IMG/VR virus record: IMGVR_UViG_2874956758_000006
Coordinates: 1 to 24,511 of that record
DNA from: a virus
Lineage: Duplodnaviria > Heunggongvirae > Uroviricota > Caudoviricetes
Direction: 5' to 3' (one strand)
Length of the DNA: 24,511 nt
This document shows positions 18,558-20,771 of the stretch, piece by piece. How positions within the stretch are numbered: the first letter of the stretch is position 1; every line of letters starts with the position of its first letter. Made by a program: the position numbers and the translations under genes. A model generated the notes under the pieces. That model was not told the origin of the DNA and ran no database searches. It was given only the letters and a program-made list of their open reading frames with translations.

Positions 18558-20360
18558 ATGAGCACCGATAAACAAGTTTACCCACTGTATTACGAAGCAA
18601 AAAATGACAAAGTAAGAAAACGCCTCGGTATTAAAGGCGGTTTTTACTGGGCTGAAGCGAAAAAATTATCCATTGCCATCTCCCGTGGTGCTGTTGCGAT
18701 TGACGATGCAGGCTACGATGAAGATGACTTTAAAAAACCTGTTCACGTCAATTTGCCCGTTGTTGATGACCTCCCGCCAGAAGGCGTGTTTGATACGGAA
18801 TTCTGCAACCGTTACGAAAAAGGCGGGGAAGATGGCATCACAATGGTATTTATCGCGCCCTCACCCTCTGCGCAGGGCAAACCAACCAGCACTGACAACA
18901 CCAATGTTAATGGCGAAGACATGACGGAGATTGAGGAGAATATGCTACTCCCGATTTCTGGCCAGGAGCTGCCCATTCGCTGGCTTGCTCAACACGGCAG
19001 CGAAAAACCGGTAACGCACGTTTCACGCGACGAACTCCAGGCATTACACATTGCTCGGGATGAAGAACTACCGGCTGTTACTGCTCTGGCTGTTTCGCAT
19101 AAAACCAGTCTGCTCGACCCGCTGGAGATTCGCGACCTCCACAAACTCGTGCGTGATACTGACAAAGTTTTCCCTAATCCTGGCAATTCAAATCTGGGAC
19201 TGATGACTGCTTTTTTCGAAGCATATCTGGATGCCAACTACACCGATCGCGGTCTGCTGACAAAAGAGTGGATGAAAGGAAATCGTGTTTCGCGTATCAC
19301 TCGCACGGCTTCCGGTGCTAATGCTGGCGGCGGGAACCTCACCGATCGCGGCGAAGGTTTCGTCCACGATCTGACGTCGCTGGCGCGCGACGTAGCCACT
19401 GGCGTACTGGCCCGTTCAATGGACGTGGATATTTATAACCTTCATCCGGCACACGCTAAACGCATTGAGGAAATTATCGTTGAAAATAAACCGCCCTTTT
19501 CTGTTTTCCGCGACAAATTCATCACCATGCCTGGCGGGATGGATTATTCCCGCGCCATCGTGGTTGCGTCAGTGAAAGAAGCACCGATTGGTATCGAGGT
19601 CATCCCCGCGCACGTCACTGAATATCTGAACAAGGTACTGACTGAAACCGATCATGCCAACCCTGATCCGGAAATCGTGGATATTGCCTGCGGTCGCTCC
19701 TCTGCCCCGATGCCGCAACGTGTAACAGAAGAAGGAAAACAGGATGATGAAGAAAAACCGCAACCATCTTGCGCAATGGCAGATGAACAGGCAACGGCTG
19801 AAACAGTGGAACCGGATGCAACTGAACATCATCAGGACACGCAGCCGCTGGATGCTCAGTCACAGGTAAATGCTGTTGATGCGAAATATCAGAAACTGCG
19901 GACAGAACTCCATGAAGCCCGGAAAAACATTCCGCCCAAAAATCCTGTCGATGCAGACAAATTACTGGCTGCCTCTCGCGGAGAATTAGTTGAAGGGATT
20001 AGCGACCCGAATGATTCGAAATGGATTCCCTGTCATCATATCTCCTCAAATGAAGTCAAAAAAACGGAAAATGAAGTGCGACAGACTGAAGATAAACAGC
20101 ACCAGAACAGCGAACCGGAGGAGGAAACGCCCTGCAATCAGACTGGCGAGGATAACTGCCCTGACTGTGGCGCGGTGATGGGAGACGCAACTTATCAGGA
20201 AACTTTTGACGAAAAAAACCAGATGAAGCACAGGAAGAAGAGCCGAAGAAAACGGAAAAAGCTGATGATTTGTTACCGGAGAACGCTGGCAGCGATCAGC
20301 ATAATGATAGCAATAATGAAACTGGCGAAGATGAACTCAACTGGAAAAAACAGGTGTTGA
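18558..20360 (+). CDS. large acidic protein, RecE (exonuclease VIII) N-terminal-region-like; frame likely continues by -1 shift at the A7 tract (20212-20218) to a stop at 20497
   Basis: Position in the early-left operon where Rac carries recE; resemblance to the RecE N-terminal region is from memory and unverified; the tail after the A7 tract looks like out-of-frame translation, whereas the -1 frame continues with the same acidic composition. Confidence 0.45.
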
Positions 20361-20474
20361 TTGCGGCGGTTTACGGTTTATGTGCGAATCCTGCGTGCAT
20401 AGCCTATGCGCCTGCAATCCCTGACATCGCAATGATGATTGCCAACAAGCTTGAAAATTTTGGAGTGACCAGTG

Positions 20475-20771
20475 ATGAGCGCTTACCCGATTTTTGATCG
20501 TATTGAAGAAATGGCATGGGCTCGTCACTACCAGCAGATCGTTCGTGAAGAAAAAGAAACGGAACTGGCGGACGACCTGGAAAAAGGTCTGCCTCAGCAC
20601 CTGTTTGAATCGCTCTGCATCGACCATTTGCAACGCCACGGTGCCAATAAACAGGCAATCAGCCACGCATTTGATGATGATGTTGAGTTTCAGGAGCGCA
20701 TGGCAGAACACATCCGGTACATGGCTGAAACCATTGCCCACCACCAGGTTGATATTGATTTGGAGGACTAA
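20475..20771 (+). CDS. small acidic hypothetical protein (98 aa from ATG 20475)
   Basis: SD GGAG 9 nt upstream of the ATG; 7-nt gap to the ATPase gene. Confidence 0.4.

What the first reader, a model, noticed from the sequence alone, without database searches (positions are those of the whole stretch)
18558..20497. Large acidic RecE-N-terminus-like ORF interrupted at an A7 homopolymer; nuclease domain and recT apparently absent
The 600-aa ORF ends in an implausible basic/hydrophobic tail right after the A7 run at 20212-20218. The -1 frame opens exactly there and continues with protein-like acidic sequence to 20497, so one extra A would give a ~646-aa product. This is either a homopolymer sequencing error, a decay mutation or slippage-dependent expression. 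The gene occupies the recE position of Rac-like prophages but is followed by a different module instead of a recognisable recT.
Basis: partly seen in the sequence, partly recalled or inferred. Interest (0 to 1): 0.5.

Follow-up and report, generated by a model that had tools for sequence, protein, structure and literature searches.

The report
Frameshifted nuclease-less RecE-like prophage gene
This is a prophage gene in Shigella dysenteriae that was broken by the loss of one A in a run of eight; the intact gene belongs to a little-studied family of phage proteins that share the front part of the recombination enzyme RecE but naturally lack its nuclease, so the break is ordinary gene decay.

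Summary
ORF 18558-20360 (600 aa) leaves its ancestral frame at the A7 run 20212-20218. The -1 frame then continues to 20497. Nine closely related E. coli genomes carry A8 and an intact 646-aa ORF, and one carries A9. The A7 allele is 100% identical in a complete S. dysenteriae chromosome and an independent draft contig, so it is a real mutation and not a one-off assembly error.

The same prophage has a second A8-to-A7 frameshift in xis and several IS insertions. Other Shigella and related E. coli copies of this gene are broken in other ways (IS600, an IS4-like element, A9, A6 plus A7). No frameshift-stimulating RNA structure follows the site. The best reading is pseudogenisation at a homopolymer hotspot.

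The missing nuclease and recT are not decay. The intact protein belongs to a natural nuclease-less branch of the RecE N-terminal family. Instead of the PD-(D/E)XK domain it ends in a conserved ~45-aa helical hairpin (AAxQGLCANP motif). The frameshift removes this hairpin. The gene is followed by gam and an AAA_24 (Sak4-like) ATPase. The function of the N-terminal scaffold is unknown, and its predicted fold has no solved analogue. Interest is low to moderate.

The parts
18558..20360 (+). Frameshifted ORF (600 aa, WP_128880872.1, 'RecE family exodeoxyribonuclease [Shigella dysenteriae]'). Residues 1-553 are ancestral sequence and the last 47 are out-of-frame junk.
20212..20218 (+). A7 homopolymer, the site of the -1 deletion. 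It is A8 in nine E. coli relatives, A9 in strain VL40, and not a homopolymer in E. coli R1 (GATGACGAGAAT). In the 0 frame it forms an in-phase A_AAA_AAC heptamer (20213-20219).
20209..20497 (+). The -1 frame continuation, which is the ancestral C-terminus of the 646-aa protein: the end of the acidic linker plus the tail.
20336..20464 (+). Conserved C-terminal helical-hairpin motif ([43 protein letters not shown]; invariant AA..G.C.NP), now out of frame with the start codon.
   Evidence: AF2 predicts helices at 590-608 and 618-634.
20058..20064 (+). A second A7 run inside the gene. It is A6 in another decayed copy (L018).
20475..20771 (+). gam (lambda GamS-like, 98 aa, intact). Its start overlaps the end of the ancestral recE' frame by 23 nt, and it has its own GGAG Shine-Dalgarno at 20463-20466.
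20777..21874 (+). AAA_24 P-loop ATPase, 365 aa (phrog_1366, with a weak match to Sak4-like phrog_124). It occupies the place of recT or bet.
21925..22113 (+). DUF1187 (rcbA-like) small gene. The RalA sRNA lies on the opposite strand.
22222..23457 (+). Xis-Int fused ORF (411 aa) created by a second A8-to-A7 frameshift at 22361-22367. This is context evidence that the prophage is decaying.

Best explanation
The gene is a pseudogenised copy of a nuclease-less RecE-N-terminal-family gene in a degraded Rac/lambda-like prophage of Shigella dysenteriae, integrated next to ybhA. An A8 tract that arose in this lineage lost one A by replication slippage. Translation now leaves the ancestral frame at codon 554, adds 47 junk residues and stops at 20360. 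The truncated product keeps the folded N-terminal region (about residues 1-395) and most of the acidic disordered linker. It loses the conserved C-terminal helical hairpin that defines the nuclease-less branch, so it is most probably non-functional. Downstream gam and the AAA_24 ATPase are intact and have their own ribosome-binding sites. Shown here: the frameshift, its ancestral state, its presence in independent assemblies, the family membership and the loss of the conserved motif. Inferred: loss of function, and the role of the intact protein. For the intact protein I think the most likely role is a non-catalytic accessory or scaffold of phage early-left DNA-end and recombination functions, with the hairpin as an interaction or oligomerisation module. 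I put this at roughly 30% only; the function is otherwise unknown.
For: Nine close E. coli relatives have A8 and an intact 646-aa ORF, and one has A9. FDAARGOS_944 carries the same prophage at the same ybhA-modC site with A8. The window is 100% identical to chromosome CP026831.1 and to the independent draft contig ACBTHD010000068.1, both with A7. A second 600-aa S. dysenteriae variant also exists. The same element has a second A8-to-A7 frameshift in xis, IS insertions and a truncated portal gene. The same gene is independently broken elsewhere by IS600, by an IS4-like element, and by A6 plus A7 on a different haplotype. The tail removed by the frameshift is conserved in about 25 clusters that are under 50% identical to each other, and in phage POCJ13. 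No stable RNA structure follows the run (z = -0.97). Pfam and NCBIfam find no nuclease domain.
Against: I had no read-level data, so recurrent homopolymer miscalling cannot be formally excluded. The A7 allele happens to place an A_AAA_AAC slippery heptamer in phase, so a small amount of full-length product by ribosomal or transcriptional slippage is possible. Loss of function of the truncated protein has not been tested, and the N-terminal domain alone might retain some activity. The 646-aa lineage also lacks 15 aa, including one CxxC of a conserved Cys knuckle, so even the A8 form may already be under relaxed selection.
Confidence: 0.85

Rival explanations
1. Sequencing or assembly artefact: the true sequence is A8 and the gene is intact.
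For: Homopolymer under-calling is a common long-read error. A second A8-to-A7 difference lies only 2.1 kb away in xis, which is the pattern such errors give.
Against: Both A7 runs are identical in a complete chromosome and in an independent 21-kb draft contig. The exact 600-aa protein and the 411-aa Xis-Int fusion are recorded from 2 and 4 contigs respectively, and a second 600-aa variant comes from another S. dysenteriae chromosome. A more divergent copy (L018) also has A7.
Confidence: 0.05
2. Recoding: the A7 allele is expressed as a full-length protein by programmed -1 ribosomal frameshifting on A_AAA_AAC, or by transcriptional slippage on the A run.
For: The heptamer A(20213) AAA AAC(20219) is in the correct phase, and the -1 frame opens three bases before the run. 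An AGGA lies 12 nt upstream. From my own knowledge, RNA polymerase slippage on A/T runs is documented in Shigella genes.
Against: All close relatives are in frame with A8, and older relatives have no homopolymer at all, so the shifted arrangement is not conserved. No stimulatory structure lies downstream. From my own knowledge, A_AAA_AAC is a poor shifter in E. coli compared with A_AAA_AAG, and seven A is short for efficient transcriptional slippage. The surrounding prophage is visibly decaying.
Confidence: 0.04
3. Phase-variable contingency locus: the A tract switches the C-terminal hairpin ON and OFF at useful frequency.
For: Tract lengths A7, A8 and A9 are all seen among close relatives, and A7 occurs on two different haplotypes. 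A second A run in the gene also varies.
Against: The off-length alleles sit in copies or elements with other lesions (IS600 in VL40, a second frameshift in L018, the xis frameshift and IS elements here), as expected for neutral decay. The tract is lineage-specific and absent from most of the family. From my own knowledge, eight A is short for phase variation in mismatch-repair-proficient enterics.
Confidence: 0.05

Closest known systems
RecE (exonuclease VIII) of the E. coli K-12 Rac prophage
   Same: The N-terminal ~590 residues are homologous (72% identity over the whole alignment; PRK09709 positions 1-596; PF06630). The gene sits in the same slot of the early-left operon, after kil/ydaE/racC-like genes and before xis-int.
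   Different: Homology stops at '...ETGE', just before the PD-(D/E)XK nuclease domain (K-12 residues ~602-866). No PF12684 domain is present and no recT follows. A 55-aa tail replaces the nuclease, and here it is also out of frame.
Nuclease-less RecE relatives of lambdoid phages ('RecE-2' proteins mentioned in PMC12315714; phrog_26058; 646-732-aa 'RecE family exodeoxyribonuclease' proteins, for example in phage POCJ13 and E. coli R1)
   Same: They share the conserved core (about residues 245-390), an acidic linker, the absence of a nuclease, and the C-terminal AAxQGLCANP hairpin. They occupy the same genomic slot, often just upstream of gam.
   Different: The window copy is frameshifted, so the hairpin is not translated. 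I could not confirm that the paper's 'RecE-2' set includes this exact subfamily because its supplement was not available. Partner modules differ: gam-bet-exo in R1 and POCJ13, gam-AAA_24 here, and none in L014-L016.
RecE-N fused to a DnaQ-like (PF16473, Rv2179c-like) 3'-5' exonuclease (814 aa, P0126)
   Same: The N-terminal scaffold is 86% identical, and the upstream genes (rha, ydaE) and slot are the same.
   Different: It carries a different C-terminal effector, and xis-int follows directly with no gam or ATPase.
dnaX-type programmed -1 frameshift sites
   Same: An in-phase X_XXY_YYZ heptamer (A_AAA_AAC) with an AGGA upstream.
   Different: There is no downstream stimulator, the shifted arrangement is not conserved in relatives, and the A-site codon is AAC rather than AAG.

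Membership tests
RecE / exodeoxyribonuclease VIII (Rac type) | N-terminal region homologous to RecE residues 1-~600 (PF06630 / PRK09709) | tested here: met
   PF06630 E = 1.5e-36. PRK09709 matches residues 1-591 against profile 1-596/877. The alignment with K-12 RecE confirms this.
RecE / exodeoxyribonuclease VIII (Rac type) | C-terminal PD-(D/E)XK nuclease domain (PF12684/DUF3799; K-12 residues ~602-866) | tested here: not met
   No Pfam hit in either the frameshifted or the repaired protein. The NCBIfam score of 1051 is below the cut-off of 1269. The alignment ends at ETGE.
RecE / exodeoxyribonuclease VIII (Rac type) | Partner annealase recT immediately downstream | tested here: not met
   The downstream genes are gam (PF06064) and an AAA_24 ATPase.
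RecE / exodeoxyribonuclease VIII (Rac type) | 5'-3' dsDNA exonuclease activity | not testable with these tools
   This needs biochemistry. Activity is not expected without the nuclease domain.
Nuclease-less RecE-N family with C-terminal AAxQGLCANP hairpin | Conserved core domain (RTxSGxxAGGGNxTDR ... DYSRA ... LTExDH; about residues 245-390) | tested here: met
   The consensus of 65 representatives and BLASTP against the 670-aa P0194 (35% identity, E = 2e-36) both show it. AF2 pLDDT is 84-98 in this region.
Nuclease-less RecE-N family with C-terminal AAxQGLCANP hairpin | C-terminal hairpin motif translated in frame with the N-terminal domain | tested here: not met
   The motif is encoded at 20336-20464, but in the -1 frame relative to the start codon because of the A7 run. 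It is in frame in the A8 relatives.
Nuclease-less RecE-N family with C-terminal AAxQGLCANP hairpin | Location in the early-left operon of a lambdoid prophage, upstream of xis-int | tested here: met
Programmed -1 ribosomal frameshift site | In-phase slippery heptamer X_XXY_YYZ | tested here: met
   A_AAA_AAC at 20213-20219. Codon 552 starts at 20211.
Programmed -1 ribosomal frameshift site | Downstream stimulatory RNA structure | tested here: not met
   The first 24 nt after the site are unpaired. MFE is -15 kcal/mol against -12.5 +/- 2.6 for shuffles, z = -0.97.
Programmed -1 ribosomal frameshift site | The shifted gene arrangement is conserved among homologues | tested here: not met
   Nine relatives have A8 in frame, and R1 and K-12 have no homopolymer.
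Homopolymer phase-variation (contingency) locus | Tract-length polymorphism among close relatives | tested here: met
   A7, A8 and A9 are all observed.
Homopolymer phase-variation (contingency) locus | Within-population ON/OFF heterogeneity at appreciable frequency | not testable with these tools
   This needs raw reads or colony sequencing.

The most novel reading that the evidence does not exclude
The intact family may be an uncharacterised, modular phage early protein. Its N-terminal scaffold has a predicted fold with no solved analogue. That scaffold is joined through an acidic disordered linker to interchangeable C-terminal effectors: a PD-(D/E)XK nuclease, a DnaQ-like exonuclease, or a 45-aa AAxQGLCANP helical hairpin. 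The hairpin also exists as free-standing small proteins in unrelated bacteria and phages. The hairpin version works without any partner recombinase, for example as a host-takeover, anti-defence or DNA-end accessory factor. If so, the long-unexplained RecE N-terminus would be an autonomous functional module and not an appendage of the nuclease.
Probability: 0.3. Interest if true: 0.5.

Novelty: new member of a known kind. Interest (0 to 1): 0.22.

Why it matters
The frameshift itself is routine prophage decay in Shigella and matters only for annotation. The gene should be flagged as a frameshifted pseudogene. It should not be called a 'RecE family exodeoxyribonuclease', because even the intact form has no nuclease. 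The wider point is modest but useful. The N-terminal two-thirds of RecE is described in a 2023 review as 'of unknown function' (PMC11611040). Here it turns out to be a free-standing, conserved module that occurs with three alternative C-termini, and with or without recombinases. This argues that it has its own function, and it gives natural constructs (646-aa form, 814-aa form, hairpin alone) with which to test that function.

Full report
OBSERVATION. The ORF 18558-20360 (+) encodes 600 aa. Seven A occupy 20212-20218. After the run the 0 frame reads 47 basic and hydrophobic residues and stops. The -1 frame has a stop at 20206-20208 and is then open to 20495-20497. It encodes an acidic stretch followed by ...[54 protein letters not shown]. 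Inserting one A gives 646 aa.

IS THE FRAMESHIFT REAL, AND WHAT IS THE ANCESTRAL STATE? A megablast search of 5,426 complete E. coli genomes found 18 genomes with the same gene arrangement. A 151-nt probe across the run matched nine genomes with exactly one extra base and one genome with two extra bases. Direct inspection shows A8 in O121 201805972, CFSAN029787 and FDAARGOS_944, and A9 in VL40, where the gene is also split by IS600. With A8 the ORF is 646 aa. In E. coli R1 the homologous codons are GAT GAC GAG AAT, so the homopolymer is a lineage-specific novelty.

The window is 100% identical over 11,954 nt to chromosome CP026831.1 and over 7,880 nt to the independent draft contig ACBTHD010000068.1. 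Both have A7. The exact 600-aa product is RefSeq WP_128880872.1 from Shigella dysenteriae, and a second 600-aa variant comes from another S. dysenteriae chromosome. The deletion is therefore a real mutation fixed in a lineage. It is not a one-off assembly error, although I could not inspect reads.

CONTEXT OF DECAY. FDAARGOS_944 carries the same prophage at the same chromosomal site (ybhA-modC) with 98.8% identity. Besides SNPs, the window differs by single-A losses in two A8 runs. One is in this gene. The other is in xis (22361-22367), where it fuses Xis to Int in a 411-aa ORF. The window also holds several IS copies. One IS3-family element lies between the repressor region and the early-left genes. 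There is also a truncated portal gene.

The same gene is broken independently in other Shigella and related E. coli genomes. The lesions are IS600, an IS4-like element, and, in a 96.8%-identical copy on a different local haplotype, A7 at this run plus A6 at the upstream A7 run 20058-20064. The 75-aa downstream ORF is called on 379 contigs, but in the sampled cases this reflects IS insertion or contig breaks, and the run is A8 there.

RECODING? By accident, the A7 allele places A_AAA_AAC (20213-20219) in the correct phase for a -1 shift. However, the 82 nt downstream fold no better than shuffles (z = -0.97). The shifted arrangement is not conserved. From my own knowledge, AAC is a poor A-site codon for slippage in E. 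coli. Trace read-through by ribosomal or transcriptional slippage cannot be excluded, but nothing suggests that it is programmed.

WHAT THE INTACT GENE IS. NCBIfam PRK09709 (exodeoxyribonuclease VIII) matches residues 1-591 against profile positions 1-596 of 877, and Pfam PF06630 matches residues 52-189. No nuclease family matches. The alignment with K-12 RecE runs to '...ENAGSD.H.D..ETGE' and stops where the crystallised nuclease domain begins. What follows is not junk. The 55-aa tail is strongly conserved in the 665-aa protein of E. coli R1 and in the 682-aa protein of the sequenced Stx phage POCJ13, which is only 60% identical overall. In both, gam-bet-exo follow.

A HMMER scan of 1.84 billion cluster representatives found 227 related clusters. 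Of 65 long representatives, 17 carry PF12684 (PD-(D/E)XK), 11 carry PF16473 (a DnaQ-like 3'-5' exonuclease), 2 are fused to RecT, and the rest have no recognised C-terminal domain. About 25 of these nuclease-less proteins (490-730 aa) end in the same motif, LTYxQQLTIAALQGLCANPAxxxxxDDIPxMAxxLA, with AA..G.C.NP invariant. The motif also occurs in free-standing 54-91-aa proteins from enterobacteria, cyanobacterial MAGs and phage-like contigs. It also occurs in PHROGs 2201 and 26058, both of unknown function, and it has no Pfam model.

The partner genes vary. They are gam-bet-exo in R1 and POCJ13, gam-AAA_24 here, and none at all in L014-L016, where a small ORF and xis-int follow directly. The 814-aa DnaQ-like version is likewise followed directly by xis-int. 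More distant members swap the first ~225 residues for a YdfE_N-type domain but keep the core (about residues 245-390) and the hairpin.

LITERATURE. A 2023 review calls the RecE N-terminus 'of unknown function'. [quoted passage not shown] A 2025 survey of lambdoid recombination modules mentions 'RecE-2' proteins that lack a nuclease domain and have unknown roles. The same survey also reports DnaQ-like nucleases and Rad51/RecA-type (Sak4) annealases in these modules (PMC12315714). The family has therefore been noticed but not characterised.

HOW IT MOST LIKELY WORKS. Shown: one A was lost from an A8 tract. As a result the conserved hairpin is no longer translated, while gam (with its own GGAG at 20463-20466) and the AAA_24 ATPase remain intact. 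Inferred: the truncated protein is non-functional, and the lesion is neutral decay in a prophage that is already crippled. For the intact protein I commit, at about 30%, to a non-catalytic accessory or scaffold role in phage DNA-end and recombination transactions. In this reading the hairpin acts as an interaction or oligomerisation module in place of the ring-forming nuclease. An unrelated host-takeover or anti-defence role is equally open.

VERDICT. The missing nuclease and recT are natural features of a catalogued but uncharacterised nuclease-less RecE-N family, not damage. Interest is low for the frameshift and modest for the family.

Noticed in passing
window 22222-23457 (A run 22361-22367): xis carries its own A8-to-A7 frameshift relative to FDAARGOS_944. 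This fuses the first ~50 residues of Xis in frame to Int (411 aa, WP_128880874.1, annotated 'excisionase'). It is present in at least 4 contigs.
   Followed up: yes
window 20058-20064: A second A7 run inside the RecE-like gene. It is A6 in another decayed copy (L018), so the gene has at least two homopolymer hotspots.
   Followed up: partly
window ~20125-20170 (protein residues ~520-540): The 646-aa lineage lacks 15 aa relative to K-12 RecE, R1 and POCJ13. The loss removes the first CxxC of a conserved CxxC-x7-CPDC cysteine knuckle (possible zinc ribbon) between the acidic linker and the C-terminal domain.
   Followed up: no
window 21931-22109 (-): Rfam finds a full-length RalA antitoxin sRNA (216 bits) antisense to the DUF1187/rcbA-like gene. 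The ralR toxin gene that lies beside it in K-12 and R1 is absent here, so this is an orphan antitoxin.
   Followed up: no
window 17068-17256 (+): isrK (17068-17144) and C4 antisense RNA (17169-17256) lie at the 5' end of the 282-aa Ash+Rha ORF (17017-17865). This resembles a P1/P7 immI-like or Gifsy isrK-type control region in the early-left operon.
   Followed up: no
window 1-917, 7757-9811, 15298-16582: Multiple IS elements are present. An IS3-family copy (minus strand, 15298-16582) separates the repressor/PL region from the early-left genes, and a 99.8%-identical inverted partial copy sits at the window start. An IS30-like transposase (7757-8908) and an IS3-family orfB (8993-9811) lie next to a truncated portal gene (5371-6447).
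   Followed up: partly
L028/L029 4001-6445; L014-L016: The same syntenic slot in Rac-like prophages can hold RecE-N fused to a DnaQ-like PF16473 exonuclease (814 aa), or hairpin-type proteins with no recombinase at all downstream. The RecE N-terminal scaffold is therefore not tied to RecT or Bet.
   Followed up: partly
window 20777-21874: The 365-aa AAA_24 ATPase that replaces recT or bet matches phrog_1366 (unknown function, E = 2e-78) and only weakly matches Sak4-like phrog_124 (E = 1.5e-8). It has no PDB relative by sequence, and its role as an annealase is unproven.
   Followed up: partly
L001 6001-7773, L006 2409-4181, L012 822-2496: RefSeq PGAP marks the intact A8 (646-aa) copies as pseudogenes 'missing C-terminus', because they are compared with full-length RecE. 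The frameshifted 600-aa S. dysenteriae copy, in contrast, has a regular protein accession. This is an annotation inversion.
   Followed up: partly
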